Shown here piece by piece: positions 1 through 40,249 of a stretch of 64,000 bases of DNA. The DNA lies in IMG/VR virus record IMGVR_UViG_3300037189_013673, positions 6,513 to 70,512 of that record. The stretch is one strand, 5' to 3'. The notes below the pieces were generated by a model, which did no database searches, was not told the DNA's origin, and saw only the letters and a program-made list of their open reading frames with translations. The position numbers and the translations under genes are program-made. Position 1 is the stretch's first letter. The number at the start of each line of letters is the position of its first letter. The stretch comes from a virus.

Positions 1-367
1 GTTTGTCAAAGGTTATATAAGAAAAGAAACTTATGAAAAAGGTTTAGCCTCTAAAGCTAAAGCCATAAGATTAGCTACTTTATCTGTTTTAGGTAGAGAG
101 AAAAAATTTGATACTTATGTTGATGGTATCAAAACAGAATCATTTATCTTTAAAGAATTAAACGAAAAATTTAGAAATGTCTACATAGATATTAGATACT
201 CTTGCTACTATATGATGTATGAAGTAAGCCAATTATTAGGTGATGATTTCGATTGTTGGAAAACAGACTGCATTTATTATAGAGATACTCCTCAAAATAG
301 AAAATTAGTACATGACTATTTTGATAAAAAGAATATTACTTATAAGCAATTGGTTTTTAAACAATAA
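1..367 (+). CDS. 5'-truncated ORF, possible family-B DNA polymerase-like C-terminus
   Basis: Open frame from nt 2 to TAA at 365-367 (absent from ORF track); contains DCWKTDCIYY resembling PolB motif C. Confidence 0.45.
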   Translation, partial: FVKGYIRKETYEKGLASKAKAIRLATLSVLGREKKFDTYVDGIKTESFIFKELNEKFRNVYIDIRYSCYYMMYEVSQLLGDDFDCWKTDCIYYRDTPQNRKLVHDYFDKKNITYKQLVFKQ

Positions 368-429
368 ATTATTATAAGTATATTTTCTTATTTTTTTTAA
401 TAATTATTTTTTTTATAATAATTATTTAT

Positions 430-437
430 TATATTTG
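430..437 (+). promoter_or_regulatory. Bacteroidota sigma-A -7 element TATATTTG
   Basis: Matches TAnnTTTG just upstream of ORF 464. Confidence 0.7.
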
Positions 438-463
438 TACTATCATTTAAACTTAAACCAAGA

Positions 464-760
464 ATGAATTTAAAAACAACAGAATTTTCTGAAGAAGAAA
501 ATAAAAAACAATTTAAACTTACCAACTTTAATGAAATGGGTATAGATATTCATATACTCAATGAATCTAATAATTTTCATAAAATACCATCTGGAAATTT
601 TTACAAGTTCGGTGTTTTCAAAGACGGCAAATATTATTGGTATTGGTATGGAAAACCAGTTGCTGATAGTAGAGAAAAGATGTATGAGATTTACACTGCT
701 TTATTAAAAGTAAGAGGCCTAGGTGATATAGTTTTCATTTACAAAGTTAAAAAAGTATGA
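464..760 (+). CDS. Hypothetical protein
   Basis: ORF after promoter and A-rich leader; ATGA overlap with next ORF. Confidence 0.75.
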   Translation: MNLKTTEFSEEENKKQFKLTNFNEMGIDIHILNESNNFHKIPSGNFYKFGVFKDGKYYWYWYGKPVADSREKMYEIYTALLKVRGLGDIVFIYKVKKV

Positions 761-1191
761 TTAGAATACATAAAGAAGAAGCAGATAGACTAGTTTTGTC
801 TGTACTAACTGAATTATCTAAAGTTGAAGACAAAGATTTTGCAAAACAGTCTTTAGATTTAATGGATGATAGTTTAGATAACGCTTTATTTACCGGTGTT
901 ATTTTAAATAAATCAATACCAAGTCTTTTTAGTAAAGAAGAAGAAGATTTAAGAAACTCTTTAGTTACTATAATAGGTTCTTTTTTTTATAGTGTAAAAG
1001 AAGATGGTACTGATATATCAGGTCATGAACTATCTAAGAATTTAATTAAATTTATGTCTAAAGAAGATGTTTCTAGAAAAGGTTATAAAGAAAGCATTAG
1101 AATGAAGTTTGCTTTATCTCAATTTGCAATTGCTTTTTTAGAATACGAAAAGCTTGAAAAAAAATATCCTGCAGTAATGAAATTCATGTAA
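757..1191 (+). CDS. Hypothetical protein
   Basis: 144-aa ORF coupled to previous gene. Confidence 0.75.
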   Translation: MIRIHKEEADRLVLSVLTELSKVEDKDFAKQSLDLMDDSLDNALFTGVILNKSIPSLFSKEEEDLRNSLVTIIGSFFYSVKEDGTDISGHELSKNLIKFMSKEDVSRKGYKESIRMKFALSQFAIAFLEYEKLEKKYPAVMKFM

Positions 1192-1224
1192 ATAATAAAC
1201 CAATAAACTTTAAACAACAATAAT

Positions 1225-1488
1225 ATGAACATTTTAGAAGAAGCAAATCAAATTGTAAATCAACGTTCTGAAGAAAAAGAACGTACGTATGGTCCATTCA
1301 GTGAAGGAATGAACAGAGCCGCTTTAATTTTATCAGGAATGGTAGGATATGAAGTTGATGCTATTTATATGTATAAAGCCATGATAGCTTTAAAATTATC
1401 TAGAGAATCTTATAACCATAAAGAAGACAATTTACTTGATTGTGTAGCTTATATTGGAGCAATGAATAATCATATTAACGATTTTTAA
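1225..1488 (+). CDS. DUF6378-like helical protein (putative nucleotide pyrophosphohydrolase fold)
   Basis: ILEEA..IV....E..YG ... M..LK..R ... DN..D...Y pattern; lies in nucleotide-modification cluster. Confidence 0.65.
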   Translation: MNILEEANQIVNQRSEEKERTYGPFSEGMNRAALILSGMVGYEVDAIYMYKAMIALKLSRESYNHKEDNLLDCVAYIGAMNNHINDF

Positions 1489-1490
1489 TT

Positions 1491-2411
1491 ATGAAAACAG
1501 GTATAATAGGAATTTTAAATAATCCAGCTACTTCTAAAAACTCACACTCGGCTGGTATGGTTCACATAGTATCTAAACTTTATGATGCTAAAGTATTAAC
1601 TGAAAAAGATAATTGGCTTGAATACGAAAAACTAATTATATATCACGGTGTTAATTTTAAACCTGGGGTTTTTAATGTCATAGGTGGTATAAACGATGGT
1701 GTTTTATTAAGAGCTAAAAAACTAAACGATTACATAAATAGTAAAACAGAACAAGATTGGCTTGAATCTGTATTTTCATTAGATGGTTTTCAATTAAATG
1801 GTTTTTCTATAAAAAGAAAACTAAACTTATATGATGATGCAAAAGATATAAGTATAATACCTCTTGCTAATAGAGAAAATTTAGTAATAGGTGATTCTCA
1901 TTCTTTATCTGTTTGGCCTAACGAAGAATATACTATTTCAAGAAATGATGGTAAAACTCTTCATGGCTTTTTAAAGCAAAATAGAGATTTATCTGATTAC
2001 AAGAAAATTATATTTTATTTTGGAAATATAGATTTAAGATTCCATTTAGCTAGACAAGAAAATCCTATTGAAGCAACTAGAGATTTATTTAAAAGATATG
2101 TTGATTATGCTTCTAAATACGACTGTACTTTAGTTCAATTACTTCCTGTAGAAGATGAATCAAGAATACTTCCAAAATCTGGTCAATATAAAGGTCAAAA
2201 CTTTTATGGTTCTATTGAGCTTAGAAAACAATTAAGACTTGAAGCTAATAAAATTATAGTTGAGTCTGGATTACCTACCATTGATTGGCCTTTAGAATAT
2301 TTAGATAATAATGGTAATTTATCTTTCGAAGTCATGGAGCCAAAGCAATCTGTTCACTTAAAACCTGAATTTTACTTAAGAAACTTTAAGAGACAATTAA
2401 CTTTATTTTAA
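1491..2411 (+). CDS. Hypothetical protein with SGNH-like C-terminal domain, DNA-modification cluster
   Basis: LVIGDSHS, FYFGNIDLRFHL and SVHL motifs. Confidence 0.55.
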   Translation: MKTGIIGILNNPATSKNSHSAGMVHIVSKLYDAKVLTEKDNWLEYEKLIIYHGVNFKPGVFNVIGGINDGVLLRAKKLNDYINSKTEQDWLESVFSLDGFQLNGFSIKRKLNLYDDAKDISIIPLANRENLVIGDSHSLSVWPNEEYTISRNDGKTLHGFLKQNRDLSDYKKIIFYFGNIDLRFHLARQENPIEATRDLFKRYVDYASKYDCTLVQLLPVEDESRILPKSGQYKGQNFYGSIELRKQLRLEANKIIVESGLPTIDWPLEYLDNNGNLSFEVMEPKQSVHLKPEFYLRNFKRQLTLF

Positions 2412-3454
2412 TGGAATATTCATTTGAAATTAAAGGTGATTTATTACAAGCTTTAGATGAATATCATTTTAAAAGCATGTTAATGGAAAAATATGTTATT
2501 GAGAAAAATCATTTTGAAGGTGATATTGAAAAAGCAGTTAATGATGATTTAATTTATCATATACCTATCTATGATATGGGTCAAAGAAAATATGCTGCCT
2601 TTTGTTCTTTTACAGAAGCTGTTTGGAATAAAGATAAAGATGTCAAAGGTAACGGAGTACATTTTGCTAATCATGAAATTAAAAATGAATTTGATTGGTT
2701 GATGTTATTTTACTTATTTAGATTATCTGGCTCAGGTATTAATTATAAACCTAAAACAGATAGTTTATTTACTTCATTTATAGGTACTCATGGTTTTGGT
2801 AATTTTTGGATTGTAGATTCTATTTTAAAAAATAAATTTACTTATCAAGAATGGTTAAATGATTTAAAAAATACTAGTAAACCATTTACAGATAATAAAG
2901 GATATTTATTGCCTCAATTTTCATTTGAAGGTTTAGAATCAAATCATTTAAAAAAATTTATTCTAGAATACTCAGTTGATTTGGTAACTCATTTATATAA
3001 TTTTATGTTAACTGGTCAAAAACAAATTTATCAAATAACAGATGAAGGCAATAAATGGCTAAATGATAAAGGATTTAAAAGACAAAACTTTGTTTTAACT
3101 GCTTTCGCTGCTGATTTAGCAGAGTATTTTCCTAATTACGTAGATAGATTTGGTCTTGTTTACGCAGGCACTAATGCTACTAAATGTATTAAAGCAATAT
3201 TTCCTAAAATAAATAAAAAAACTTCTGAGTTTGAATATATCAATGATGTCTTACAATTTCAATCTAAACGTTATAAATTAACTCCTATTGATTGCGAAGA
3301 CTCAAGAAACTGTGATTTAATTAGATATTTTCAAGAATATCAATCAAGTCACCATATACTTAAAAACAAAGGTATTAAAATGAAAAATAATTCAGTATTA
3401 AAACGAACAATGGGATTAGATAACTATTATCAATTCTCTAACAACTTAAAATAA
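2411..3454 (+). CDS. Amino acid:DNA transferase / aGPT-pyrophosphorylase-like protein
   Basis: AAD.AEYFP, YAGTNA..CI and IDCEDS.NCD.IRY resemble conserved blocks of the HhH-fold aGPT-Pplase family; next to PLP enzyme and TS homolog. Confidence 0.6.
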   Translation: MEYSFEIKGDLLQALDEYHFKSMLMEKYVIEKNHFEGDIEKAVNDDLIYHIPIYDMGQRKYAAFCSFTEAVWNKDKDVKGNGVHFANHEIKNEFDWLMLFYLFRLSGSGINYKPKTDSLFTSFIGTHGFGNFWIVDSILKNKFTYQEWLNDLKNTSKPFTDNKGYLLPQFSFEGLESNHLKKFILEYSVDLVTHLYNFMLTGQKQIYQITDEGNKWLNDKGFKRQNFVLTAFAADLAEYFPNYVDRFGLVYAGTNATKCIKAIFPKINKKTSEFEYINDVLQFQSKRYKLTPIDCEDSRNCDLIRYFQEYQSSHHILKNKGIKMKNNSVLKRTMGLDNYYQFSNNLK

Positions 3455-4347
3455 TGGCACACGATAAACACATTATAGATGGCATCAATAAAGATGTCAA
3501 TATGTTATACCCTGATAAACATGCTTATCTTGAGCTAACTAAAGATTTTAAATCATTACTACCTAATATTATAATAAAAGAGCATGAAGGAGTAAAAGTA
3601 GTTAGAGAAGATTTAACTTTAGTTGGTGGTACAAAAACTAGAGCTGGAGAATTTTTAGTTTCTCAAGTTAAAAAAAATACTTTAGTTTACGTAGTTCCTA
3701 GAGTTGGTCATGCAGGTATTGCTATAATGGAATTGGCTAGACTTTATAATAAAGAAGTTATATTTTTTATGCCTGCTTGTAAAGAGATTTCAGACCATCA
3801 ATCTTTTATTATTAATATGAAACCTAAAGATGTCATATTTGAAAGAATTGCTGCGATGCCTAATTTGAATTTATTAGCTAAAAAATACGCAGAGCAAAAT
3901 GGTTATCAATTCTTACCTTTTGGTTTAAATCATTATAATACTATTGCTGGTTTTGTAAGAATATGTGAGAACTTATTAAAAAACTATGATGAACCAGAAG
4001 AAATGTGGTCTGTAGTATCAACAGGAGTACTTACTAGAGGTTTACAGATAGGTTTTGAAAATACAAAAATGAATGGTATCTGTGTTGCTAGAAATATGAA
4101 ACAAGGAGAATTAGGTAGAACTAAAATAATATCAGAACCATTACCATTTTTACAAGACGAGAAAAAAAGTAATTTACCTGAATTTAATACCGTGCCTAGT
4201 TACGATGGCAAAGGTTGGAAATATGTGCCTAAAAATACTGGTAGAAATGTTTGGTTTTGGAATGTTGCAGGTAATATTTCTGCTCCTGAAAACTTTGATA
4301 AATCTAAAATAAATTCTTATAGAGATTGGAGTAAAAATCAAATTTAA
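3454..4347 (+). CDS. PLP-dependent enzyme (fold type II, cysteine synthase/ACC deaminase-like)
   Basis: VVREDL..GGTKTR (PLP lysine), VSTGVL loop, SYDGKGW, WFWNV. Confidence 0.8.
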   Translation: MAHDKHIIDGINKDVNMLYPDKHAYLELTKDFKSLLPNIIIKEHEGVKVVREDLTLVGGTKTRAGEFLVSQVKKNTLVYVVPRVGHAGIAIMELARLYNKEVIFFMPACKEISDHQSFIINMKPKDVIFERIAAMPNLNLLAKKYAEQNGYQFLPFGLNHYNTIAGFVRICENLLKNYDEPEEMWSVVSTGVLTRGLQIGFENTKMNGICVARNMKQGELGRTKIISEPLPFLQDEKKSNLPEFNTVPSYDGKGWKYVPKNTGRNVWFWNVAGNISAPENFDKSKINSYRDWSKNQI

Positions 4348-4388
4348 AAATTTAACTTTTCTTTAACATGTTGAACCAATATTCTTTC

Positions 4389-4396
4389 TATATTTG
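4389..4396 (+). promoter_or_regulatory. Bacteroidota -7 promoter element TATATTTG
   Basis: TAnnTTTG about 40 nt upstream of ORF 4436. Confidence 0.65.
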
Positions 4397-4435
4397 TACC
4401 AATAAACTTTAACAATAACTTAAAACAAAAAAAAG

Positions 4436-5038
4436 ATGAACATTAAACACAAATTAGCTAGTTCTAAAGACAAAAAATGTACTATTTTAGCATCTGATAT
4501 TGCTAAAAAATTTAAAACTTCTGATGATGTAATAAAATTACATTATTTAGATTACGGTTTTTTTGTAACTTACCATAAATCAAGAAATGGTAAAACTTAC
4601 TACTGTGATTCAATATTCCCTAATGCTGTACCTATGCCAAGTATAGGTCAACCTGTTGCTTTAAATGTTCTTTTAATACAATTAATTGATTTATTTGTAT
4701 TACAGCCTGAAAGCGAAAAAGAAATGGTTTTAGATATGAAATTAACTAATGAGTTTGAGCCTATTAGAATCTGGGCTAACAAGAAAGGTATTTTTGAGAA
4801 AGGCAATCCAACTACTCAATTTGCTAAACTTATTGAAGAAGCAGGCGAATTAGCTAAATCTTTATTAAAACAAGATGAAGAAGAATTTATTGATGCTATA
4901 GGTGATTGTGTAGTAGTTCTTACAAATCTAGCTAAATTAAAAGGTTATAATATAGAGGATTGTATTAACTCTGCATATTCTGTTATAGCAAAAAGAACTG
5001 GTAAAATGGAAAACGGAACTTTTGTAAAAGATATATAA
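4436..5038 (+). CDS. MazG-like NTP pyrophosphohydrolase with about 100-aa N-terminal extension
   Basis: KLIEEAGEL...DAIGDCVVVL...KRTGKM..GTFVKD. Confidence 0.85.
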   Translation: MNIKHKLASSKDKKCTILASDIAKKFKTSDDVIKLHYLDYGFFVTYHKSRNGKTYYCDSIFPNAVPMPSIGQPVALNVLLIQLIDLFVLQPESEKEMVLDMKLTNEFEPIRIWANKKGIFEKGNPTTQFAKLIEEAGELAKSLLKQDEEEFIDAIGDCVVVLTNLAKLKGYNIEDCINSAYSVIAKRTGKMENGTFVKDI

Positions 5039-5706
5039 TGGAATTTATTAATGCACAAGAAGCTTTTGAGTTTTATTATAATCTTATTTTAGAACATGGA
5101 AAACCTCTCAATAATACTAAGTTTATTCAAAACGAAGGGTTTTATATTTTAAACCCTATTGATAATAAAATAAACACTGAATTTAGAAATTGGAAAAATT
5201 CTTATGCTCAATTAGAATGGGATTGGTATTTATCTGCTAATAGAGATGTTTCTGAGATAAAAAAACAAGCTAAAATCTGGGACAAAATGCATAATGGTGA
5301 TAATTTAGTTAACTCTAATTATGGTTACCAATGGTCTAGAAATAATCAATTACAATTTATAATTGATGAATTAACTCAAAACCCTAATTCAAGAAGAGCT
5401 GTAATTACTATTTATGACGGTAAAGACCATGAATTGCATTCTCTTGATACTCCATGCACTTTAAATATAGTTTTTAATATAACAGATGATAAATTAAATA
5501 TGAGCGTTCTAATGCGCTCTAATGATTTATGGTTTGGATTCTGTAATGACCAATATTGTTTTAGTAAATTACAAGAATTAATTGCTTTAAAACTTAACTT
5601 AGAAATAGGCTGGTATTATCATTTTGCTAATAATTTACATTTATATGATAAACATTTTGATAGCTTGATTAATCATAAAAATATGTTTATATTTACTAAA
5701 AAATAA
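5038..5706 (+). CDS. Thymidylate-synthase-family enzyme, dCMP hydroxymethylase type (T4 gp42-like)
   Basis: NSNYG, SRRA, PCT catalytic Cys, MRSNDLWFGFCND with Asp at the position of E. coli ThyA Asn177, HLY. Confidence 0.8.
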   Translation: MEFINAQEAFEFYYNLILEHGKPLNNTKFIQNEGFYILNPIDNKINTEFRNWKNSYAQLEWDWYLSANRDVSEIKKQAKIWDKMHNGDNLVNSNYGYQWSRNNQLQFIIDELTQNPNSRRAVITIYDGKDHELHSLDTPCTLNIVFNITDDKLNMSVLMRSNDLWFGFCNDQYCFSKLQELIALKLNLEIGWYYHFANNLHLYDKHFDSLINHKNMFIFTKK

Positions 5707-5710
5707 ATAA

Positions 5711-6007
5711 ATGGAAGCTTTACTTATCACTACCGATAATAAAAAAAGAAAATTAAACGTAACTACTTTTATAGAAGCTAAGTTATTGGTCTGTAATTAT
5801 AATTCTGATGCTACAGTTCAAGTCGTAGAACTTATAGATGGAAATGTTTTAATGTTTGATGAAGAAGGTAAATTGAAAGATTTATCTTTTAATGAAATAG
5901 CAACTAATTTAGCTCATGTAGGTCTTGGTATATATCCTAGTGATTTTATAGTCGGAGATGTCTTAATGCTAGAACACGACGAATTTATTAATTTGCCTTA
6001 TGAATAA
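5711..6007 (+). CDS. DUF3846-like phage protein
   Basis: DEEGKLK.L..N..AT ... D.IVGDV pattern. Confidence 0.7.
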   Translation: MEALLITTDNKKRKLNVTTFIEAKLLVCNYNSDATVQVVELIDGNVLMFDEEGKLKDLSFNEIATNLAHVGLGIYPSDFIVGDVLMLEHDEFINLPYE

Positions 6008-6039
6008 AAAAAAGGGTTAGGTAACAACTCCTAACCCTT
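6006..6039 (-). terminator. Rho-independent terminator oriented for - strand transcription
   Basis: Stem aagggttagg/cctaaccctt (6012-6039) with A-run 6006-6013 (U-tail on - strand). Confidence 0.75.
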
Positions 6040-6087
6040 AACCAAGAAACTTAAAAACAACATTATGGAATAATGATGTTATATCTA
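6006..6087 (-). ncRNA. Candidate small RNA 1 (about 80 nt)
   Basis: - strand TATATTTG at 6095-6088 pointing to the terminator at 6006-6039; no ORF between. Confidence 0.5.
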
Positions 6088-6169
6088 CAAATATAGAAAT
6101 TAAAATACTTTACTTTTTTACTAATCAAATAAATATCAAAAACTTAAATTTAATTTATAATTTTCAATT

Positions 6170-6457
6170 ATGAAGACTCGTTTTTATAAATACTTTTTTC
6201 AAGGAATAGAAAAACCTGTTGTAATGGAAGCTGAAGATAGATTTATGGCTTACGAGATGTTAAAACAATTAAGTTTCAAATCTCAAACTAAAATAGATAT
6301 GACTAAGTTAGAAGATATGCGTATTGAAACTCCTCTTGTTGGTATAACTACTAAAAAACGTAATGGTATTGATTTTACTTGGGTAACTAAAAAACATACA
6401 AGTGATGGCTGGTTAGAAACTGAAGAGTACCAAAAAATACAAAAACTTAAAAAATAA
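6170..6457 (+). CDS. Hypothetical protein
   Basis: 95-aa ORF in + strand block. Confidence 0.7.
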   Translation: MKTRFYKYFFQGIEKPVVMEAEDRFMAYEMLKQLSFKSQTKIDMTKLEDMRIETPLVGITTKKRNGIDFTWVTKKHTSDGWLETEEYQKIQKLKK

Positions 6458-6461
6458 AAAA

Positions 6462-6635
6462 ATGGAAATTAGATTTGATAAACCTATAGAAGTTTCTGCT
6501 AAACAATATTCTAGAATCATGACTCAACTCAAAGGTGTTTGTGCCGGTAAAGTTGAAAATGGAAAATATTTTATAAAAATTTGGCTAATGTCTTGGTCTA
6601 AAGAAGTAAAAATGATTTTAGAAGCAGAAGCATAA
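6462..6635 (+). CDS. Hypothetical 57-aa protein (not in ORF track)
   Basis: MEIRFDKPIEV...EAEA*; A-rich leader; TAATG coupling to next ORF. Confidence 0.65.
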   Translation: MEIRFDKPIEVSAKQYSRIMTQLKGVCAGKVENGKYFIKIWLMSWSKEVKMILEAEA

Positions 6636-6793
6636 TGGCTAAATTACAAAAAATAGAAGCTTTAAAAATTGAATTAGATAAATTATCGGTTAGATATTGT
6701 ATAGAAAAAGATGAATCTTTAAAGCCATTGATAGATAAATTACAATCTGATTTAGATTATTTTAATTACGGAATTAAAAAAACAAAAAAATGA
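6635..6793 (+). CDS. Hypothetical 52-aa protein (not in ORF track)
   Basis: MAKLQKIEALK...; coupled at both ends (TAATG, ATGA). Confidence 0.65.
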   Translation: MAKLQKIEALKIELDKLSVRYCIEKDESLKPLIDKLQSDLDYFNYGIKKTKK

Positions 6794-7575
6794 TAAATAT
6801 TTCTCAATCTTTTTTAAAAGAATACGCAAAATACAAAATGGGAGAAGTTTGTGGTTTGCAAGTAAAAGCAAAATATATTGATAAAGTAGTATTTCCTTCT
6901 TCCGATGCTATGGAATATGGTAACTTTTTTGAATATAAAGCTACTGGCTCTCTACCTAGAGATGGCCATGAACCTGTTGCTAAAATAGTATATGCAGGTA
7001 CTAAAAAAGAATCTATAGCTGAACAATATAAAAAAGCTATTGAAAGTGCTGAATTATTTAAAAAAATAATTAAACATTATAATATAGATATTGTAGATAC
7101 AGGTAGAGTAGTAACTCAAGACGGTATGACTGGTATTATGGATATAGTTGCTAATTGGAACGATAGAGTAGTTATAATAGATACCAAATATTCTGGTTTA
7201 TTAGATGATAGATGGAATGCTTTAGGTTGGGATTTAGATTCACTTCCTGAGAAACACAATACTATGATTCAATCTGTTCATTATAGAATTTTATTAGCTA
7301 AAGAATTAAATTGTGAACCAGAAGATATTGATTTTTATTTTTTTGTATTTTCTTCTAAAGAAGTAAATGATGTAAAACTTATCAAAGTAACTTCTGATGA
7401 AAATACTTTTTCTAATCATTTAACTACTATTGAATGGATGAAAGAAGAATTAAAAAAGCCAGTAGATAAACTATTTAGAGCAAGACCTGAATTGAATAGA
7501 TGTTTTAAATGTCCTATTAAAGATACTTGTTCTTTTAAAATAGAAATACCTTTAATAAATGAAGTTAGCTATTAA
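6790..7575 (+). CDS. PD-(D/E)XK exonuclease (Cas4/RecB-like), likely RecT partner
   Basis: G.MD...IIDTKY, Q..HY, C-terminal CFKCPIKDTC plus an N-terminal Cys. Confidence 0.75.
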   Translation: MINISQSFLKEYAKYKMGEVCGLQVKAKYIDKVVFPSSDAMEYGNFFEYKATGSLPRDGHEPVAKIVYAGTKKESIAEQYKKAIESAELFKKIIKHYNIDIVDTGRVVTQDGMTGIMDIVANWNDRVVIIDTKYSGLLDDRWNALGWDLDSLPEKHNTMIQSVHYRILLAKELNCEPEDIDFYFFVFSSKEVNDVKLIKVTSDENTFSNHLTTIEWMKEELKKPVDKLFRARPELNRCFKCPIKDTCSFKIEIPLINEVSY

Positions 7576-7581
7576 TTTTAG

Positions 7582-7806
7582 ATGAAAAATTTCAATGAAC
7601 ATATTATTAGTATATATGCTGAAATTAAATTGTTAACTGATTATAAAAACAATTTAAAAAAGTATATTTATTCTCAAAATATCTCTGGAAAGATTAGATT
7701 CATTGACTTTCAAAGAACTATAAGTGAAATAGAAAGAGTTGCTATAGAAATAGTAGAATTAGAAAAAACCAAGAATAAATTAATTAAAATCAACGAAAAA
7801 TTATGA
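7582..7806 (+). CDS. Hypothetical protein
   Basis: 74-aa ORF overlapping recT start. Confidence 0.6.
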   Translation: MKNFNEHIISIYAEIKLLTDYKNNLKKYIYSQNISGKIRFIDFQRTISEIERVAIEIVELEKTKNKLIKINEKL

Positions 7807-8615
7807 CGAATATTTCAACAGATGTAGTTGGTAGCTTTACTACTACAATAGAAAAATATGAAAAGAAAAATTTGCCTGAACTTTTAGAAGGCTCAGGTAT
7901 GACTGCTTCTCAATTTAAACAAATAGTTATTAATGAATTAAAGAGGTCACCTAAATTACAAGAAGTATTTTTAAAAAATCCATCTTCTTTATTTGCTAGT
8001 ATTTTAAGTTGCTGTGAATTACAATTAAACCCTAGCCAAATGCTTGGTGAATTTTATTTTCTTCCATTCAAAGATGTCATTACTCCTATATTAGGTTATA
8101 AAGGTTTAGTAACTCTTTTAATGCGCTCTGATAAAGTAAAAAAGATATGGAGTGAAATAGTATATGAAGATGATGATTTTGAATATGAGCTAGGTTTAAA
8201 CCCTAAACTTGTACATATACCTAATCATGATGGTATAAGAAACTCTAAAACTTTTAAATACGTTTACTCTTGTGCTAAATTAGATGATGAAGTTGTTTTT
8301 AAAGTAATGTCAAAATCAGAAATACAAGCCATTGCTAATATGTCTAAATTTCCAAATGATTTATATTTTAATGATAAAAAAGACCCTGAGAATTGGATGC
8401 AAAAAAAAACATGTTTAAAGCAATTAGCTAAATTAATGCCTAAATCAGATGATAGACTTAAGAAAGCGATAGCATTAGATGATAATGTTGAAGGTGGTGG
8501 CTATTTAGTACTTGATGATACAGATACTGTTAGAGTAGTTCAAGGTACTGTAATTGGTAAAAAAAATACTTTATTTGAAAGGTTAAAAAATAACCAAAAT
8601 GATGTCTTAGAATAA
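7803..8615 (+). CDS. recT: RecT-family ssDNA annealing recombinase
   Basis: L.LNP..GEFY.LPF, ILGYKGLV.L..RS, VYEDD.F.Y..G, M.KKT.LKQL.K..P. Confidence 0.9.
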   Translation: MTNISTDVVGSFTTTIEKYEKKNLPELLEGSGMTASQFKQIVINELKRSPKLQEVFLKNPSSLFASILSCCELQLNPSQMLGEFYFLPFKDVITPILGYKGLVTLLMRSDKVKKIWSEIVYEDDDFEYELGLNPKLVHIPNHDGIRNSKTFKYVYSCAKLDDEVVFKVMSKSEIQAIANMSKFPNDLYFNDKKDPENWMQKKTCLKQLAKLMPKSDDRLKKAIALDDNVEGGGYLVLDDTDTVRVVQGTVIGKKNTLFERLKNNQNDVLE

Positions 8616-8633
8616 AAAAATTACATATATTTG

Positions 8634-8724
8634 TAGTTGTAAAAATTTAATAAGTAATCCATAACTTATTGTTTTAGTTAAAGTGAAAAGAAAAACCCGA
8701 TTCGCCAAGCGTTTCGGGTTTTTT
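8634..8724 (+). ncRNA. Candidate small RNA 2 (about 90 nt)
   Basis: TATATTTG at 8626-8633 followed by ORF-less sequence and terminator 8691-8724. Confidence 0.45.
8691..8724. terminator. Bidirectional intrinsic terminator between convergent gene blocks
   Basis: aaaaacccga...tcgggttttt inverted repeat with A/T runs on both sides. Confidence 0.85.
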
Positions 8725-14248: not shown

Positions 14249-14554
14249 TTAACTTATTGTTGCTATATTATTATAAAATTCAACCTTGTTTGCTTGTAAA
14301 ACTATATGATGCTTATATCCTCCTAAATCTTCGTAAAATTCACTTTCAGTTTTGCATGGTATTTTAATTTGAACTTCGCTTGTTTGATATTCAATGCCAT
14401 CTACAATTACTCTCCATTTTGTAGTTCCATCAAAATCATTAAAGTTAAATCTAATTTGAATATATTGAGTTTGATTTTCTTTTTTAAGAATAATTTTTTT
14501 GCCTTCTAAAATAAAACTTTGTAATATTTCTTTAGTAGTTTGCTTAATCATCAT
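14249..14554 (-). CDS. Hypothetical protein
   Basis: 101-aa ORF within cassette. Confidence 0.65.
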   Translation of the reverse strand: MMIKQTTKEILQSFILEGKKIILKKENQTQYIQIRFNFNDFDGTTKWRVIVDGIEYQTSEVQIKIPCKTESEFYEDLGGYKHHIVLQANKVEFYNNIATIS

Positions 14555-15014
14555 TTTTATTTTTTAAGTTTATTTTATCAAGCAATTCGTTTACAGAAGT
14601 CAATTCATCAACATCAGTTGTATCTATATCAATAAAATTGCTTTCTGGATATTCATAGTTTTCAACATGAAAATTTTCTCTACCTCTAATATTTGTAGTA
14701 TGAACAAATATTTCAGTTACATCAGCTTCAAACTTAAATTTTTCTCTAATATCTAAATATGGAGATACAACTGCGATAATAACATCAAATTCTTCGGTTG
14801 TGTCCAAGTATTTTGCAATATTATAGGCAGTAGTAATATTATATCTTCTACCAGCTTCTGAATAGTCTTTATTTGTAATTATTTTGCGCAAAATATCGCC
14901 ATCAACTACAAATGCTTTTCTTTCAGGTCTTGATATTTCAAGCACTTTTTTTAAGTGATTTGCTAAAGTGGTTTTACCAGAATGAGGTTGACCGATAAAA
15001 TTGTAGATTGCCAT
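14544..15014 (-). CDS. cysC: Adenylylsulfate (APS) kinase
   Basis: GQPHSGKTTLA P-loop, DGD.LR, DYS..GR..N, VSPY..R, YE.P. Confidence 0.8.
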   Translation of the reverse strand: MAIYNFIGQPHSGKTTLANHLKKVLEISRPERKAFVVDGDILRKIITNKDYSEAGRRYNITTAYNIAKYLDTTEEFDVIIAVVSPYLDIREKFKFEADVTEIFVHTTNIRGRENFHVENYEYPESNFIDIDTTDVDELTSVNELLDKINLKNKNDD

Positions 15015-15042
15015 GATGTTTTAGTTTAAGTTTTTGGTTTAA

Positions 15043-15050
15043 CAAATATA
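15043..15050 (-). promoter_or_regulatory. Bacteroidota -7 promoter element
   Basis: caaatata on + = TATATTTG on -, upstream of cysC. Confidence 0.6.
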
Positions 15051-15060
15051 ATAAAAATTA

Positions 15061-15882
15061 TTATACATAACCAAAATAGTCATAAAACCATTTATAAGTA
15101 TTTTTTATATCTCTTGAGTTTTCAAATCCTAAAACATCTTCAAAATCATCTTCTAACTTTTCAAACTTTGGTCTTAATTGGTGGTCGCCATAAATACCAT
15201 GAAAAACATCATTTTCTTGTGTATGTTGTGTTATATTTACAAAATCATGCTTATCATAATAAGGTAAATCAAAATACTCATACAAGCGCTTAATTTCAAT
15301 TTCTGGATTAGCCATTAAATCTTCATATCTAATAAAAAGTATATTTTTGTCAATCTTCTGGTCTATTACATCTTTTAAACCTTCTATAGAAGTTCCGACA
15401 GGTGTTCCATTTGCCCAAATATCAAGTCTTTTTCTTAAAGTAGTTCCTTGAAGTTGCATTGGGTTTTGAACATGATTTTCTTTATGTGGATTTTTTCTAA
15501 AGTTTTTCTCCATAGAAGCATAAATAGAACGTAAATCTCTAACCATACATACCATTTTAGGTGTATTGTAAAACATATTAGTAAAACGATAGTTAGTAAT
15601 CCATGCTCTGCTTTTATCTAAAACATAAGGTTTTTGTGTAATAGCATTAAAGTAACCATCTATTGATGCTCTACAAAAATGCAAAAAAGCAATATCCATT
15701 AATTTGGCATCTTGCGTTTTAAAGTTTGGAGATTGTTGAAAACTTGCTCTTGCCCCAAGTATTAAATCTAAAAATCCACTTGTAGGTGTGCAATAAAATT
15801 GAGGATTTTGTGCTATAATATTACTCAACAAAGTTGAACCAGCACGAGGTAATGATGAATTAAAGAAATAACTTCTTTCCAT
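15061..15882 (-). CDS. Sulfotransferase
   Basis: SLPRAGSTLL PAPS-binding loop, DKSR.W, VRDLRSI.AS, RYEDL..NP. Confidence 0.85.
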   Translation of the reverse strand: MERSYFFNSSLPRAGSTLLSNIIAQNPQFYCTPTSGFLDLILGARASFQQSPNFKTQDAKLMDIAFLHFCRASIDGYFNAITQKPYVLDKSRAWITNYRFTNMFYNTPKMVCMVRDLRSIYASMEKNFRKNPHKENHVQNPMQLQGTTLRKRLDIWANGTPVGTSIEGLKDVIDQKIDKNILFIRYEDLMANPEIEIKRLYEYFDLPYYDKHDFVNITQHTQENDVFHGIYGDHQLRPKFEKLEDDFEDVLGFENSRDIKNTYKWFYDYFGYV

Positions 15883-15910
15883 AGTGTTTATTTTAAGTTA
15901 GTTTTGGTTT

Positions 15911-16273
15911 TTATGATTTTGGCGCATCCGTATTGGATTCTGGTGGAGTTGCTATTTTTTGTTTTGGTATAGGCATATTTTCTTTTGCAGTTTGTAATTC
16001 TGCAATCAAGCTATCTACCAAAGTTTTTAATTCAGCATCATCTATATCTGTAAAAGAATCTTTACATTGCCATCTTACTTCGTTGTAACCAAATATATTG
16101 ATTGCGTGAAAATCAGTAACTAAAGTTAGATTGTCTGCTGGTTTTTTAGAAAATATTTGATTAATAACTGCTTGAACAGTTTTTAATGTATCAGTTCTAA
16201 CCTTTAAAGATAAATCTTTTGAATTGATTTGAGTTTCGCCATATCCAAAGATATGAATTGTAAAATTTTCCAT
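15911..16273 (-). CDS. Hypothetical protein
   Basis: 120-aa ORF downstream of fibre gene. Confidence 0.7.
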   Translation of the reverse strand: MENFTIHIFGYGETQINSKDLSLKVRTDTLKTVQAVINQIFSKKPADNLTLVTDFHAINIFGYNEVRWQCKDSFTDIDDAELKTLVDSLIAELQTAKENMPIPKQKIATPPESNTDAPKS

Positions 16274-19279: not shown

Positions 19280-19675
19280 TTATAATCCTAATTCTTCTAA
19301 ATGCTTTCCAAGTGATGTGGTTTTACCACATTTATACTTGTTATAGAAAGCTAATCCTATATTTTCTTTAACAATCATAATAAAAGAACAAACGTTATCA
19401 ATTTCATCTTCTGTGTCTCTTGCATAGATTTGAATTGATTTTTTCATAAATGGATTTGCTAACTGTTGATAGCCAAGTAAATCCATTTTAGCATCCATTA
19501 TTTGTAAAAAAGTAACTTTTTCTTTTTCTTGAAAGTTAACACAGATAGTATAAAATACATATCCATTTTCATCATCTGTTACTTTAATTTGAACTTCTTT
19601 TTCAGGAACGTTATATACTTTAGCATATTTTTTAATTCCTTTTAACATGATTTTTTTAACTATCGACTCTACCAT
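19280..19675 (-). CDS. Hypothetical protein
   Basis: 131-aa ORF with A-rich leader. Confidence 0.7.
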   Translation of the reverse strand: MVESIVKKIMLKGIKKYAKVYNVPEKEVQIKVTDDENGYVFYTICVNFQEKEKVTFLQIMDAKMDLLGYQQLANPFMKKSIQIYARDTEDEIDNVCSFIMIVKENIGLAFYNKYKCGKTTSLGKHLEELGL

Positions 19676-19711
19676 TTTGTTGTTTTTTTTAAGTTTCTAT
19701 TTGTAAAATTA

Positions 19712-20278
19712 CTATTTTATTCCTAATAAAGCTGCTAATTTTGGATTTTTTACTTTAAACTTATCAAACGGTTTATCTAAATTATATTCTTTTAAAAAAT
19801 CAGCAGAGTATTGAAATATTTGATTATTAAAATCAATACTACTATTTATACCAATAAATTTAACTTTAACATTACCATTTACTTCTATATTTATTGGGTT
19901 TCTAGCTAATATATCTTTAACTAAAGGTAAAACTGATGTTTTAGCTTTTTGCAAATCAATAGTGCCATTTATTTTTAATGGAAAAGAACTATTAGGCAGT
20001 ATTACAAAAGAATTATTAGATATTGAATTAGCAAATTGAACTCCTTTAAAACCAAATTTTAAATCATAACTTTTAACTATAACTTCAAAAGAAGATTTAT
20101 TAGTTAAATCAATTTGTAATGAAACATCTATTTTGTTATTAGGTATATCTACATTTTCGTATTTAAAACTTTTAATTTTATAATCATAATTTAAAGCTTG
20201 ACTTATTTGATATTTAAAATACCTATATAAACCAAAACCAGCCAATCCTATACCACCAAATAATAATACTTTTTTCAT
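19712..20278 (-). CDS. Membrane-anchored LEA_2/WHy-like beta-sandwich protein
   Basis: N-terminal TM; L.I.LTNKSSF.V.VKSY...F.G..FA...F.I.PNS pattern. Confidence 0.65.
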   Translation of the reverse strand: MKKVLLFGGIGLAGFGLYRYFKYQISQALNYDYKIKSFKYENVDIPNNKIDVSLQIDLTNKSSFEVIVKSYDLKFGFKGVQFANSISNNSFVILPNSSFPLKINGTIDLQKAKTSVLPLVKDILARNPINIEVNGNVKVKFIGINSSIDFNNQIFQYSADFLKEYNLDKPFDKFKVKNPKLAALLGIK

Positions 20279-39758: not shown

Positions 39759-40166
39759 CTACCTATTATTTTTAAAGTAGTTGATAGCCCCTAAACTTCC
39801 TACAAGAAGAACACCTCCTATTATTAATCCTAAAACGCCAAAACTTTCTTTTTCTTCAGGTTTTACAATTTCAACTTTAGGTTCTTCTGCTAGTTTTTTC
39901 GCAGCTTCAGCTTCTTTAGCTTTAGCATCATTTTCTTTTTTATTAACAAGAGTTTCTAGTTGTTCAATAATACTTGATTCAAGCCCATCGATGTAATCTT
40001 TAGATTCTTTTAAAGTACTTTGAGATTCTTCTGTTGGATTTTCTTCATGTTCAACAAAAGCATCGTCGTAACTATCTTTTAAAGTATCTAGTTTATCAAT
40101 CTTGTTACCTAAACTAGCTGGTATTTTTCCTTCTAATTTCTCTAATAATAAATCTATTTTTTCCAT
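39759..40166 (-). CDS. Acidic helical protein with C-terminal TM
   Basis: FGVLGLIIGGVLLVGSLG; TACATTTG promoter-like element at 40199-40206. Confidence 0.75.
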   Translation of the reverse strand: MEKIDLLLEKLEGKIPASLGNKIDKLDTLKDSYDDAFVEHEENPTEESQSTLKESKDYIDGLESSIIEQLETLVNKKENDAKAKEAEAAKKLAEEPKVEIVKPEEKESFGVLGLIIGGVLLVGSLGAINYFKNNR

Positions 40167-40249
40167 AATGTTTATATTTTTAAGTTTAATTAATTTTACA
40201 AATGTAATTAATTATTATTTACAATAACTATTTAATTATTTGATTTTTT

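What the first reader, a model, noticed from the sequence alone, without database searches (positions are those of the whole stretch)
6006..6095. Candidate sRNA 1: antisense mimic of a translation-initiation region
Seen: a - strand TATATTTG promoter (6095-6088) points into about 80 nt ending in a strong hairpin plus U-tail, inside a + strand operon. The RNA core UUCCAUAAUGUUGUUUUUAAGUUUCUUGGUU is the reverse complement of a typical phage leader+ATG, but on the + strand that ATG opens only Met-Glu-stop. Its 5' part can fold into a stem with a UCC loop beside the anti-AUG. It matches the start of ORF 39759-40166 over 12 nt exactly (ttccataatgtt, 40161-40172) and resembles the leaders at 15011-15039 (cysC) and 15879-15909. 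Inference: a trans-acting sRNA that blocks SD-less Bacteroidota initiation regions of phage or host mRNAs. Caveat: all leaders here are A-rich and similar.
Basis: partly seen in the sequence, partly recalled or inferred. Interest (0 to 1): 0.75.

Follow-up and report, generated by a model that had tools for sequence, protein, structure and literature searches.

The report
Conserved phage small RNA gene
An uncultured phage and its relatives carry a small backward-pointing RNA gene inside an early operon, and its one unchanging, unpaired stretch is the mirror image of the start of many of the phage's own messenger RNAs, so it probably switches those genes down.

Summary
At 6004-6095 on the - strand lie a Bacteroidota-type -7 box (TATATTTG), about 80 nt of transcript and the best intrinsic terminator of the first 20 kb.

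The unit is a conserved RNA gene. It occurs at the same place in all 28 of 28 loci found through the neighbouring protein alone, and once per genome. Terminator stem pairs covary: 7 of 9 pairs show double changes and none is broken. G.U wobbles fit only the - strand, in 6 of 19 sequences against 0 for the + strand. The -7 box is kept while its two free positions vary.

In four distant loci both stem-loops are replaced, yet the unpaired stretch AGUUUCUUG is kept.

That seed is the antisense of the start of the phages' common 5' leader. In six genomes, complementarity to start regions beat 100 of 100 dinucleotide shuffles.

Not shown:
- No RNA run was listed, so expression is untested.
- No sRNA-target co-variation was found.
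- There is no target enrichment in the distant clade.

Verdict: a real, new phage sRNA family (about 0.85-0.9). The trans-acting anti-leader repressor role is likely but inferred (about 0.5). It has no Rfam match.

The parts
6088..6095 (-). -7 promoter box TATATTTG (Bacteroidota sigma-A type TAnnTTTG); no good -33 TTTG at the usual spacing
   Evidence: A TAnnTTTG box stands at the matching place in 20 of 21 protein-anchored relatives, with the nn positions varying (TATA, TAAT, TACT, TATT, TAGT); L089 has TAAATTCG. It is also present in the 4 distant loci (read). In Flavobacterium psychrophilum the box lies at -12 to -5 (PMC9723704, passages read).
6082..6084 (-). Inferred transcription start (5th nt after the G of the box, +-1)
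   Evidence: Inference from box position -12..-5; not mapped.
6056..6080 (-). Stem-loop 1: AACA-U-CAUUAU / AUAAUG-U-UGUU with loop UCC. The 3' arm and loop hold the anti-start-codon stretch UCCAUA
   Evidence: Minimum-energy fold. A 5' stem-loop is predicted in all relatives folded, with U.G wobbles that exist only on the - strand (L012, L014, L031). UCCA and UA are invariant in A3 but absent from the 4 distant loci.
6042..6052 (-). Single-stranded seed AAGUUUCUUGG (+ strand CCAAGAAACTT)
   Evidence: UUUCUUGG is invariant in 21 of 21 protein-anchored sequences. AGUUUCUUG is kept in the 4 distant loci, where both stem-loops differ. Mean unpaired probability is 0.81 against 0.41 for the rest of the RNA, and the seed is higher in 24 of 24.
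6012..6039 (-). Stem-loop 2 = intrinsic terminator hairpin (AAGGGUUAGG / CCUAACCCUU, loop AGUUGUUA)
   Evidence: Top terminator-like site. 9 pairs, 7 with changes on both sides, 0 broken in A1; 8 of 9 with double changes in A3. - strand-only wobbles in 6 of 19 sequences, + strand-only in 0 of 19.
6004..6011 (-). U-tail (T8); on the + strand it is the A-run that overlaps the stop codon of ORF 5711-6007
   Evidence: An A-run before the hairpin is kept in nearly all relatives (L090 has only AAA), also where an HNH gene is inserted upstream. On the + strand mostly 0-3 T follow the stem, and 4-5 T in L085 and L087.
6065..6073 (+). + strand ATG GAA TAA (Met-Glu-stop): the sense image of the anti-AUG part, not a gene
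   Evidence: In relatives the + frame from this ATG runs about 2 to 30 codons, with no conserved peptide (read from the sequences).
6124..6143 (.). Second conserved block CAAATAAATATC(N)AAAACT, 30 nt upstream of the -7 box in both clades; role unknown
   Evidence: It is unique in the genome, so it is not a repeated promoter motif.
5711..6007 (+). Upstream neighbour, DUF3846-like gene
   Evidence: Pfam PF12957 E 7.9e-5, below the cut-off; PHROG 18340. 54-65% nt identity to relatives, against 75-82% for the RNA unit.
6170..6457 (+). Downstream neighbour, conserved 95-aa protein of unknown family; used as anchor to find relatives without using the RNA sequence
   Evidence: (no family).
15883..15927 (-). 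Candidate target: start region of the sulfotransferase gene 15061-15882
   Evidence: Best of 116 in the window's genome. The orthologue is rank 1 in G003 (-40.7 kcal/mol) and G004, and rank 2 in G005. Its antisense strand is the next-best match to the RNA model in the window and in G003. Pfam Sulfotransfer_3.
15015..15059 (-). Candidate target: promoter-proximal leader of the APS-kinase-like gene 14544-15014
   Evidence: Rank 8 here; rank 1 in G002 and G005. Pfam APS_kinase.
40161..40190 (-). Candidate target: leader and start of ORF 39759-40166 (11 + 12 nt of complementarity around a 3-nt bulge)
   Evidence: rank 2, -24.5 kcal/mol.
19676..19720 (-). Candidate target: start region of the 131-aa gene 19280-19675
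   Evidence: With windows -40..+30, rank 2 in G000, G002 and G004 and rank 3 in G003; rank 7 in G000 with -45..+12.
4398..4409 (+). Leader ACCAATAAACTT right after a TATATTTG promoter (MazG-like gene 4436-5038): one of four such leaders in the genome. The best one (21 of 22 identical to the + strand of the sRNA locus) lies outside the window at G000:C1:2778-2799

Best explanation
The locus is a small RNA gene of about 80 nt on the - strand. It sits in the spacer between two + strand early genes of an uncultured phage that uses Bacteroidota-type promoters.

Anatomy, 5' to 3':
- a host sigma-A type -7 box;
- a 5' stem-loop whose loop and 3' arm carry UCCAUA (anti-AUG);
- an unpaired linker with the invariant seed AGUUUCUUG(G);
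- a terminator hairpin and U-tail.

Proposed action: the seed pairs with (C)CAAGAAACU. That motif starts the common 5' leader directly after the phages' TAnnTTTG promoters, and it also lies in internal start regions. In most relatives pairing can extend through AACAAC to the start codon. This would cover the ribosome-loading region of SD-less mRNAs and lower their translation or stability.

Likely targets are a subset of phage genes, roughly 7% of start regions. The sulfotransferase/APS-kinase pair and a 131-aa gene recur among the top hits.

Shown here: conservation, structure, strand, seed accessibility (predicted) and excess complementarity.

Inferred: that the RNA is made, that it acts in trans, the sign of the effect, and which genes respond.
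For: (1) Gene-like anatomy on the - strand: box, about 80 nt, and the top-ranked terminator.

(2) Conservation not selected by RNA sequence. Loci were found through the downstream protein (alignment A2): 28 loci, 24 distinct upstream regions. 20 of the distinct regions carry the unit within 260 nt. The other 4 (L107, L111, L108, L109) carry a divergent one 210-310 nt upstream.

(3) The RNA unit is 75-82% identical to that of relatives, against 54-66% for the flanking genes.

(4) Covariation in the terminator stem: 7 of 9 pairs with double changes and 0 broken in A1; 8 of 9 in A3.

(5) Strand:
- wobbles possible only on the - strand in 6 of 19 stems, against 0 of 19 for the + strand;
- the - strand folds better than the + strand in 17 of 19 and 19 of 21;
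- the T-run is on the - strand side, while other terminators of these phages carry normal T-runs.

(6) -7 box kept in 20 of 21, with variable nn.

(7) Seed: UUUCUUGG invariant in 21 of 21. AGUUUCUUG is kept although both stem-loops are replaced in the distant clade. Unpaired probability 0.81 against 0.41, higher in 24 of 24.

(8) Targets:
- The + strand of the locus is 21 of 22 identical to the leader of the first + strand gene.
- Start regions at or below the shuffles' 1st percentile: 13/116, 6/97, 10/112, 10/91, 3/78 and 3/36 in six genomes, against shuffle means of 0.36-1.23.
- 0 of 100 shuffles reach the real top-5 mean in any genome.
- Internal coding windows: 1/95, 4/79, 4/95, 3/74, 1/66 and 1/32.
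- Motif AAGAAACTT (up to 1 mismatch): 40/530 start regions, 7/530 on their antisense strand, 11/441 internal windows.

(9) One strong model hit per genome.

(10) Precedent: GibS of Bacteroides represses mRNAs by pairing a single-stranded conserved seed with SD-less start regions (PMC7366714, passages read).
Against: - No transcript evidence: no RNA run was listed.
- No -33 TTTG at the usual spacing.
- The window's own best leaders read ACCAATAAACTT, which puts a C.U mismatch in the middle of the seed.
- sRNAs bind their own genome's orthologous start regions no better than those of other genomes (sulfotransferase -27.0 against -26.6 +- 6.0; five further families alike), so there is no co-evolution signal.
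- The bare motif is not enriched in the window as a whole.
- In the distant clade the exact 9-mer occurs 10 times against 5 for the reversed control, and only 1 of the 7 sites outside the sRNA loci lies at a start codon.
- In G001 the excess in start regions (6/97) is close to that of internal windows (4/79).
- Duplex energies ignore target accessibility and allow large internal loops.
- The excess would also arise if the locus were merely a copy of a leader.
- The sRNA promoter is of the same class as its proposed targets' promoters, so no temporal logic is evident.
Confidence: 0.55

Rival explanations
1. The RNA is real but acts only in cis. The + strand early operon reads through the spacer. 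The fully complementary roughly 80-bp duplex, or the convergent transcription itself, would cut or attenuate the polycistronic mRNA between the nucleotide-metabolism genes and the downstream recombination genes (PD-(D/E)XK nuclease, RecT), in the manner of lambda OOP.
For: - The hairpin has no T-run on the + strand (0-3 T in most relatives), so + transcripts should pass through it.
- No TAnnTTTG box on the + strand between 6096 and 6169, so ORF 6170 probably depends on read-through.
- The unit always sits at the same gene boundary.
- No sRNA-target co-variation was found.
Against: A purely cis-acting antisense RNA is complementary whatever its sequence. That does not explain an invariant, unpaired 9-nt seed that survives replacement of both stem-loops. 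Nor does it explain the seed's identity with a leader motif found elsewhere. The unit overlaps no gene or real start region on the + strand, only Met-Glu-stop.
Confidence: 0.2
2. The sRNA is real, but its conserved seed is aimed at a host RNA or a host RNA-binding protein, for example to reprogramme host translation or to sponge a host regulator. Under this view the resemblance to phage leaders is secondary.
For: - The seed is invariant across phages whose own leaders differ, and the distant clade shows no enrichment of the seed complement in its own start regions.
- No co-variation with phage targets.
- Most relatives also keep an invariant terminator loop AGUUGUUA, which could be a protein or kissing site.
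- Phage sRNAs that act on host mRNAs are known, such as PreS and VpdS (PMC12197685, section 2 read).
Against: No host genome is known, so nothing was tested. The one bacterial-bin hit is itself a phage contig. Enrichment in phage start regions is real in six genomes.
Confidence: 0.1
3. The functional strand is the + strand: a hairpin plus a leader-like stretch within the operon mRNA, or in DNA. It could be a processing or stabilising 5' hairpin with a ribosome-loading site, a mini-ORF for coupling, or a hairpin-type promoter. The - strand box and T-run would then be incidental.
For: - The + strand reads like a complete consensus leader with ATG.
- In the window itself the + strand fold is slightly better: -22.1 (z -5.70) against -20.0 (z -3.42).
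- TATGGA is invariant in the main clade.
Against: - Wobbles fit only the - strand, 6 of 19 against 0 of 19.
- The - strand folds better in 17 of 19 and 19 of 21.
- The A-run, which is the - strand U-tail, is kept, while the + strand tail is not.
- The -7 box is kept on the - strand with variable nn.
- The mini-ORF varies from about 2 to 30 codons, and the ATG context is lost in the distant clade.
- There is one such hairpin per genome, so it is not a promoter class.
Confidence: 0.07
4. There is no discrete RNA product. The hairpin and T-run merely stop antisense read-through from the large - strand module (8727-64000) into the + strand operon, and the leader-like stretch is a decayed duplicate of a start region.
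For: The - strand module converges on the + strand module at about 8700, so antisense read-through is plausible. The - strand terminator is strong.
Against: - The site lies 2.7 kb inside the + module, not at the convergence point.
- A decayed duplicate would not stay more conserved than its flanking genes.
- It would not keep an invariant unpaired seed.
- It would not keep a promoter box at a fixed distance upstream.
Confidence: 0.05
5. The - strand encodes a tiny hydrophobic peptide (MLFLSFLVKG in the window).
For: An AUG or GUG lies in the conserved CCAUARUG, followed by Leu/Phe-rich codons.
Against: The frame is not kept. Indels in the variable linker shift it, and the stop falls after 3 to more than 20 codons in different relatives (read from A3). 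Conservation covers all three codon positions. The distant clade lacks the start.
Confidence: 0.02

Closest known systems
GibS and other intergenic base-pairing sRNAs of Bacteroides thetaiotaomicron (PMC7366714; passages read)
   Same: Own start site plus intrinsic terminator. [quoted passage not shown] AT-rich. A phylum without Hfq or ProQ.
   Different: GibS is chromosomal, about 145 nt, with its seed at the 5' end and two specific metabolic targets. This unit is phage-borne, about 80 nt, with the seed between two stem-loops. Its seed is antisense to a leader motif shared by many genes of the same phage. No sequence relation: no Rfam family matched.
P22 Sar and lambda OOP antisense RNAs (PMC12197685, section 2 read)
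   Same: Short phage RNAs of about 70-80 nt, transcribed against the flow of an operon from their own promoter to an intrinsic terminator. Sar blocks initiation of ant by pairing; OOP triggers RNase III decay of cII mRNA.
   Different: Both overlap the gene they control and need no conserved seed. This unit overlaps only a spacer (Met-Glu-stop), and its conserved part matches sites elsewhere in the genome.
P1/P7 C4 and P4 CI immunity RNAs (recalled from memory; no call)
   Same: Phage RNAs whose short conserved stretches pair with repeated complementary sites in leaders of the phage's own transcripts, at a distance from the RNA gene.
   Different: As I recall, those RNAs are processed out of the leader of the very operon they control and serve lysogenic immunity. 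This one has its own promoter on the opposite strand. Nothing here points to lysogeny; no search for integrase or repressor genes in the window's genome was made.
Trans-acting phage sRNAs of enterobacterial and vibrio phages (PreS, VpdS, 24B_1; PMC12197685, section 2 read)
   Same: Phage-encoded, act by base pairing beyond their own locus.
   Different: Those are Hfq-dependent and act largely on host mRNAs. No phage sRNA of Bacteroidota phages turned up in my searches: searches returned lists in which I saw none, one search returned a single unrelated paper, and the review PMC12197685 has 0 occurrences of 'Bacteroid' or 'Flavobacter'.

Membership tests
Independently transcribed base-pairing sRNA (GibS-like architecture) | Own promoter upstream of the RNA | tested here: met
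   TAnnTTTG on the - strand in the window, in 20 of 21 protein-anchored relatives and in 4 distant loci. This is a motif only; the start site is not mapped.
Independently transcribed base-pairing sRNA (GibS-like architecture) | Intrinsic terminator on the same strand | tested here: met
   (top site); covariation; U-tail kept.
Independently transcribed base-pairing sRNA (GibS-like architecture) | Conserved, single-stranded seed | tested here: met
   UUUCUUGG invariant in 21 of 21. Kept in the distant clade. Unpaired probability 0.81 against 0.41, higher in 24 of 24. Prediction only.
Independently transcribed base-pairing sRNA (GibS-like architecture) | Complementarity to target start regions beyond chance | tested here: met
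   0 of 100 shuffles reach the real top-5 mean in each of six genomes; motif 40/530 start regions against 11/441 internal windows. Not met in the distant clade; no co-variation.
Independently transcribed base-pairing sRNA (GibS-like architecture) | A stable transcript of the predicted size exists | not testable with these tools
   No RNA holder was listed; the phage is uncultured.
Any curated RNA family (Rfam 15) | Match at the family's gathering score | tested here: not met
   0 matches in the whole window, both strands.
Cis-antisense phage RNAs (OOP, Sar type) | Overlaps the coding or start region of the gene it controls | tested here: not met
   It overlaps only the 6008-6169 spacer. The + frame there is Met-Glu-stop and varies in relatives.
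Cis-antisense phage RNAs (OOP, Sar type) | The opposite strand is transcribed across the RNA gene | tested here: inconclusive
   There is no + strand T-run after the hairpin and no + strand promoter box before ORF 6170. That makes read-through likely, but there are no RNA data.
P1 C4 / P4 CI type immunity RNAs (features recalled from memory) | Processed from the leader of the operon it controls | tested here: not met
   Own promoter box, on the strand opposite to the operon.
P1 C4 / P4 CI type immunity RNAs (features recalled from memory) | Several complementary target sites within the phage genome | tested here: met
   (in silico only).

The most novel reading that the evidence does not exclude
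This would be a phage-encoded 'anti-leader' RNA. The phages of this group put one common 5' leader, (A)CCAAGAAACUU...AACAAC...AUG, on the first genes of their host-polymerase transcription units. They also carry a single small RNA whose unpaired seed is the exact antisense of that leader. As it accumulates, one RNA could throttle a whole class of SD-less phage mRNAs at once. That would be a global post-transcriptional timer, not a gene-specific antisense switch.
Probability: 0.3. Interest if true: 0.8.

Novelty: new member of a known kind. Interest (0 to 1): 0.62.

Why it matters
Regulatory RNAs of phages are known almost only from enterobacterial, vibrio and pseudomonad phages. My literature searches found none for phages of Bacteroidota, a phylum that lacks Shine-Dalgarno-led initiation and Hfq.

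This is a well-delimited candidate of about 80 nt with unusually good comparative support. It occurs in 28 of 28 syntenic loci, and its seed outlives both of its stem-loops. The partner motif is clear, so it can be tested directly with gel shifts and reporters, even though the phages are uncultured.

If the anti-leader reading holds, it would show how a phage coordinates a class of its own mRNAs after transcription. It would also give a natural handle on how SD-less start regions are recognised and blocked. The motif pair (leader and anti-leader) could serve as a small regulatory part for Flavobacterium or Bacteroides genetics.

Tried and rejected
- Expression: no RNA holder was listed for window:5400-6900.
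- Rfam: no match.
- Cultured relatives: blastn of 5000-7500 found only 65% identity over the thymidylate-synthase-like gene in 3 Bacteroides phage records. tblastn of two large proteins found nothing.
- Host through bacterial genomes: 2 pattern hits. L074 is a chance match inside a coding region, with no A-run and no box. L075 lies on a 132-kb contig binned with a Sediminibacterium MAG. That contig is itself a related phage genome: about 32% GC throughout, and 71 of 116 proteins of the window's genome match it in order. It therefore gives only a weak hint of host.
- Single-protein search with ORF 6170 found nothing; the alignment-based search did.
- My first reading of L107, L108, L109 and L111 as lacking the element was wrong. 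My 260-nt window was too short, and the model search and inspection found divergent units further upstream.
- Co-evolution test, cognate against non-cognate sRNA and start-region energies in six gene families: no difference.
- Distant-clade target enrichment: none.
- Bare motif count in the window: not above chance.
- The 98-aa gene 464-760, whose start region holds ACCAAGA-ATG-AATTTAAAAACAAC, ranks 5, 30, 5, 42, 17, 3 and 42 in seven genomes. It is not a consistent top target.
- A sigma-70 type promoter scan is uninformative here: 148 sites against 140.6 in shuffles.
- Rejected readings: a - strand micro-peptide, a + strand mini-ORF, a + strand terminator, and a hairpin-type promoter class. 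Reasons are given under the rival explanations.
- Of 42 metagenome pattern hits, 16 carry the whole unit and 1 (L050) is cut at the hairpin. The other 25 are ordinary leaders or unrelated matches and were left out of the alignments.
- Supplementary files of the papers were not opened. The SI of PMC9723704 (promoter motifs) and Table S1 of PMC12197685 (list of phage sRNAs) may bear on the promoter spacing and on the claim that no Bacteroidota phage sRNA is in print.
Full report
**Setting**

The window is bases 6513-70512 of a 70.5-kb virus record, 98% complete by the collection's estimate. It has 23-31% G+C and no tRNA genes.

Genes at 1-8700 run on the + strand:
- PALP-like enzyme
- MazG-like pyrophosphatase
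- thymidylate-synthase-like enzyme
- DUF3846-like protein
- small unknown proteins
- PD-(D/E)XK nuclease
- RecT

All genes from 8727 onward run on the - strand.

The finding lies in the 162-nt spacer between the + strand genes 5711-6007 and 6170-6457.

No cultured phage is close:
- blastn found only a 65% match over the thymidylate-synthase-like gene in three Bacteroides phage records.
- tblastn with two large proteins found nothing.

**The observation**

- The - strand carries TATATTTG at 6095-6088.
- About 45 nt further on lies a 10-pair hairpin (6039-6012) followed by T8.
- That hairpin ranks first among the 9 terminator-like sites of the first 20 kb; shuffles gave 5.5 +- 2.4 sites.
- The + strand ATG at 6065 opens Met-Glu-stop.
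- The 79-nt RNA folds into a 5' stem-loop with a UCC loop, an open linker and the terminator hairpin: -20.0 kcal/mol, z -3.42.
- The 12-nt identity with the start of ORF 39759-40166 is exact.

**Is it a gene? Comparative evidence**

A relative found through the upstream protein (52% amino-acid identity) carries the same unit after an inserted NUMOD4/HNH endonuclease gene. Its stem sequence differs but the loop is the same.

Pattern scans then gave 5 and 10 viral loci and 42 metagenome loci.
- Of the 42 metagenome loci, 16 hold the whole unit and 1 is cut off.
- The other 25 are ordinary leaders or unrelated matches.

Twenty-one distinct versions were aligned as A1.
- RNAalifold finds the terminator stem with 9 pairs.
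- 7 of the 9 pairs show changes on both sides, and none is broken.

Those loci were selected by patterns that contain the seed. I therefore made a second sample that does not depend on the RNA sequence, using an alignment of the downstream 95-aa protein (A2). It found 28 viral loci with 24 distinct upstream regions.
- Twenty of the distinct regions carry the unit within 260 nt of the protein start.
- I first scored the remaining four (L107, L111, L108, L109; 42-45% protein identity) as lacking it.
- A covariance model built from A1 gave weak hits at the same relative place in them.
- Reading the sequence showed complete units 210-310 nt upstream: a TAnnTTTG box, a 5' stem-loop, the stretch AGUUUCUUG, and a hairpin with a U-tail.
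- In those four, both stem-loops have entirely different sequences, and an extra gene is inserted before the anchor protein.

So all 28 of 28 protein-anchored loci have the unit.

Further results from this sample:
- In the alignment of 21 protein-anchored sequences (A3), UUUCUUGG, UCCA and UA are invariant.
- 8 of 9 terminator pairs show double changes.
- The model finds exactly one strong hit per genome in seven genomes.
- The unit is 75-82% identical to that of relatives, against 54-66% for the flanking genes and 55-71% for the rest of the spacer.

**Which strand**

Four observations point to the - strand.

1. G.U wobbles in the terminator stem are possible only on the - strand in 6 of 19 distinct sequences, and only on the + strand in 0 of 19. 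The 5' stem-loop of L012, L014 and L031 also needs U.G pairs.
2. The - strand RNA folds better than its complement in 17 of 19 and 19 of 21. The window itself and L103/L013 are the exceptions.
3. The run of A before the hairpin, which is the - strand U-tail, is kept nearly everywhere, also after the HNH insertion. Mostly 0-3 T follow the stem on the + strand. Other terminators in these genomes have normal T-runs.
4. A TAnnTTTG box stands upstream on the - strand in 20 of 21. The TA and TTTG are kept while the two free positions vary.

In Flavobacterium psychrophilum this box lies at -12 to -5 of sigma-A promoters (PMC9723704, passages read). That places the start at about 6083 and gives RNAs of 70-87 nt.

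There is no -33 TTTG at the usual spacing. A second conserved block (6124-6143) lies 30 nt upstream of the box in both clades, and its role is unknown.

**What the conserved part matches**

The + strand of the locus is 21 of 22 identical to a site outside the window, at C1:2778-2799. There it is the leader of the first gene of the + strand module, directly after a TATATTTG promoter.

Listing all TAnnTTTG boxes before genes shows a common leader in these phages. It runs TAnnTTTG, then (T/A)ACCAA(G/T)AAACTT(A/T)AA, then AACAAC, then ATG.

The sRNA seed AAGUUUCUUGG is its antisense, and it is predicted to be unpaired: 0.81 against 0.41 for the rest of the RNA, higher in 24 of 24.

I tested complementarity to start regions with composition-preserving shuffles, using RNAduplex energies.
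- The sRNA part scored was the RNA without its terminator.
- The targets were windows from -45 to +12 around each start codon.
- The control was 100 dinucleotide shuffles of the sRNA part per genome.

| Genome | Start regions at or below the shuffles' 1st percentile | Shuffle mean | Internal coding windows |
|---|---|---|---|
| G000 (window's genome) | 13 of 116 | 1.23 +- 1.16 | 1/95 |
| G001 | 6 of 97 | 0.99 | 4/79 |
| G002 | 10 of 112 | 1.23 | 4/95 |
| G003 | 10 of 91 | 0.94 | 3/74 |
| G004 | 3 of 78 | 0.80 | 1/66 |
| G005 | 3 of 36 | 0.36 | 1/32 |

No shuffle reached the real mean of the five best energies in any genome (0 of 100 each).

The seed complement AAGAAACTT (up to 1 mismatch) occurs in 40 of 530 start regions. 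It occurs in 7 of 530 on their antisense strand and in 11 of 441 internal windows. A reversed control gives 9 of 530 and 13 of 441.

Recurrent top partners:
- Sulfotransferase gene (window 15061-15882): rank 1 in G000, G003 and G004, rank 2 in G005.
- Adjacent APS-kinase-like gene: rank 1 in G002 and G005.

The antisense strand of the sulfotransferase start region is the next-best hit of the RNA model in the window (E 0.72) and in G003 (E 0.025).

**Results that do not support the trans reading**

- The bare motif is not enriched in the window as a whole.
- The window's own promoter-proximal leaders read ACCAATAAACTT, a mismatch in the middle of the seed.
- sRNAs bind the orthologous start regions of their own genome no better than those of other genomes, in six gene families.
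- In the distant clade the exact 9-mer occurs 10 times against 5 for the control. Only 1 of the 7 sites outside the sRNA loci lies at a start codon, that of a gene whose product begins like an XRE-type regulator (my reading, no family search).
- The anti-AUG part UCCAUA is absent from the distant clade.
- Duplex energies ignore accessibility of the target.
- No RNA run was listed, so transcription itself is inferred.

**Mechanism and rivals**

The reading I hold most likely (about 0.55 as a whole; about 0.85-0.9 that the RNA gene is real) is a base-pairing sRNA. Its open seed would nucleate on (C)CAAGAAACU at or near the 5' end of phage mRNAs. In the main clade, pairing could extend across AACAAC to the start codon and cover the ribosome-loading region of SD-less messages.

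GibS of Bacteroides is the direct precedent for repression at SD-less start regions by a conserved single-stranded seed (PMC7366714, passages read).

The main rival (0.2) is a purely cis-antisense role.
- The + strand operon probably reads through the unit. There is no + strand T-run after the hairpin and no + strand box before ORF 6170.
- A roughly 80-bp duplex, or convergent transcription, could separate expression of the nucleotide-metabolism genes from the recombination genes.
- That rival does not explain an invariant seed that outlives both stem-loops.

Other rivals:
- A host target (0.1) could not be tested. The only bacterial-bin hit is itself a 132-kb related phage contig.
- A + strand function, a bare insulator terminator and a micro-peptide are each disfavoured by the strand and frame evidence.

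**Comparison with known systems and novelty**

The unit works like known base-pairing sRNAs, and in size and orientation it resembles Sar and OOP (PMC12197685, section 2 read). It fails the defining feature of cis-antisense RNAs, which is overlap with the controlled gene. It also matches no Rfam family.

C4 and CI of P1 and P4 share the idea of repeated target sites in the phage's own leaders. As I recall, they are processed from the controlled operon; that is memory, not a call.

I found no report of an sRNA of a phage of Bacteroidota:
- Searches returned lists in which I saw none.
- One search returned a single unrelated paper.
- One search listed the known enterobacterial cases and other phage cases.
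- The 2025 review has no occurrence of 'Bacteroid' or 'Flavobacter'.
- Supplements were not seen.

I rate it a new member of a known kind. The bolder reading is a single anti-leader RNA that throttles a whole class of phage mRNAs. The evidence does not exclude it, and I put it at about 0.3.

Noticed in passing
L001:3307-3849 (same contig as L008); also L013/L103 and L030: A NUMOD4/HNH (plus weak AP2) homing-endonuclease gene is inserted between the DUF3846-like gene and the sRNA terminator in some relatives. The A-run and hairpin follow it unchanged (Pfam).
   Followed up: partly
window 14544-15882 (-): An adjacent sulfotransferase (Sulfotransfer_3, E 9e-18) and APS-kinase-like gene (E 2e-11) form a possible phage sulfation module. 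It is conserved in all seven related genomes compared.
   Followed up: partly
window 3454-5706 (+): A PALP-like enzyme, a MazG-like pyrophosphatase and a thymidylate-synthase-like protein sit together. The nearest phage hits of the last are annotated as deoxycytidylate 5-hydroxymethyltransferase, so this may be a DNA base-modification module.
   Followed up: no
G000:C1:2692-2805 (outside the window, L011): A divergent promoter region has back-to-back TATATTTG boxes. They drive the first + strand gene (234 aa, coiled-coil-like) and a - strand cluster of small membrane-like proteins.
   Followed up: no
window 6124-6143: The conserved block CAAATAAATATC(N)AAAACT lies exactly 30 nt upstream of the sRNA -7 box in both clades and is unique in the genome. 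It may be a regulator site or UP-like element.
   Followed up: partly
G006:C9 (L078-L084), 132,486 bases: A contig binned with a Sediminibacterium MAG is a related, larger phage genome. It has about 32% GC, 71 of 116 proteins of the window's genome match it in order, and three tRNA genes (Pro, Gln, Leu) sit in the last 500 bases, where GC rises to 46%.
   Followed up: partly
window 29405-30106 and 30130-30831 (-): Two adjacent 233-aa genes both match the same single gene of the 132-kb relative at 69% identity, so they are a tandem duplication. No Pfam family matches.
   Followed up: no
G002 and G008 (relatives): These records are classed as having inverted terminal repeats. In G002 both ends carry the same TATATTTG promoter and leader, pointing inward.
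   Followed up: no
window 6012-6039 loop; leaders: The terminator loop AGUUGUUA is invariant in most of the main clade; variants are AGUAGUUA and AGUUGUUG. It is complementary to the UAACAAC stretch of many leaders, and the same GUUGUU also occurs in the 3' arm of stem-loop 1. A possible kissing contact was not tested.
   Followed up: no
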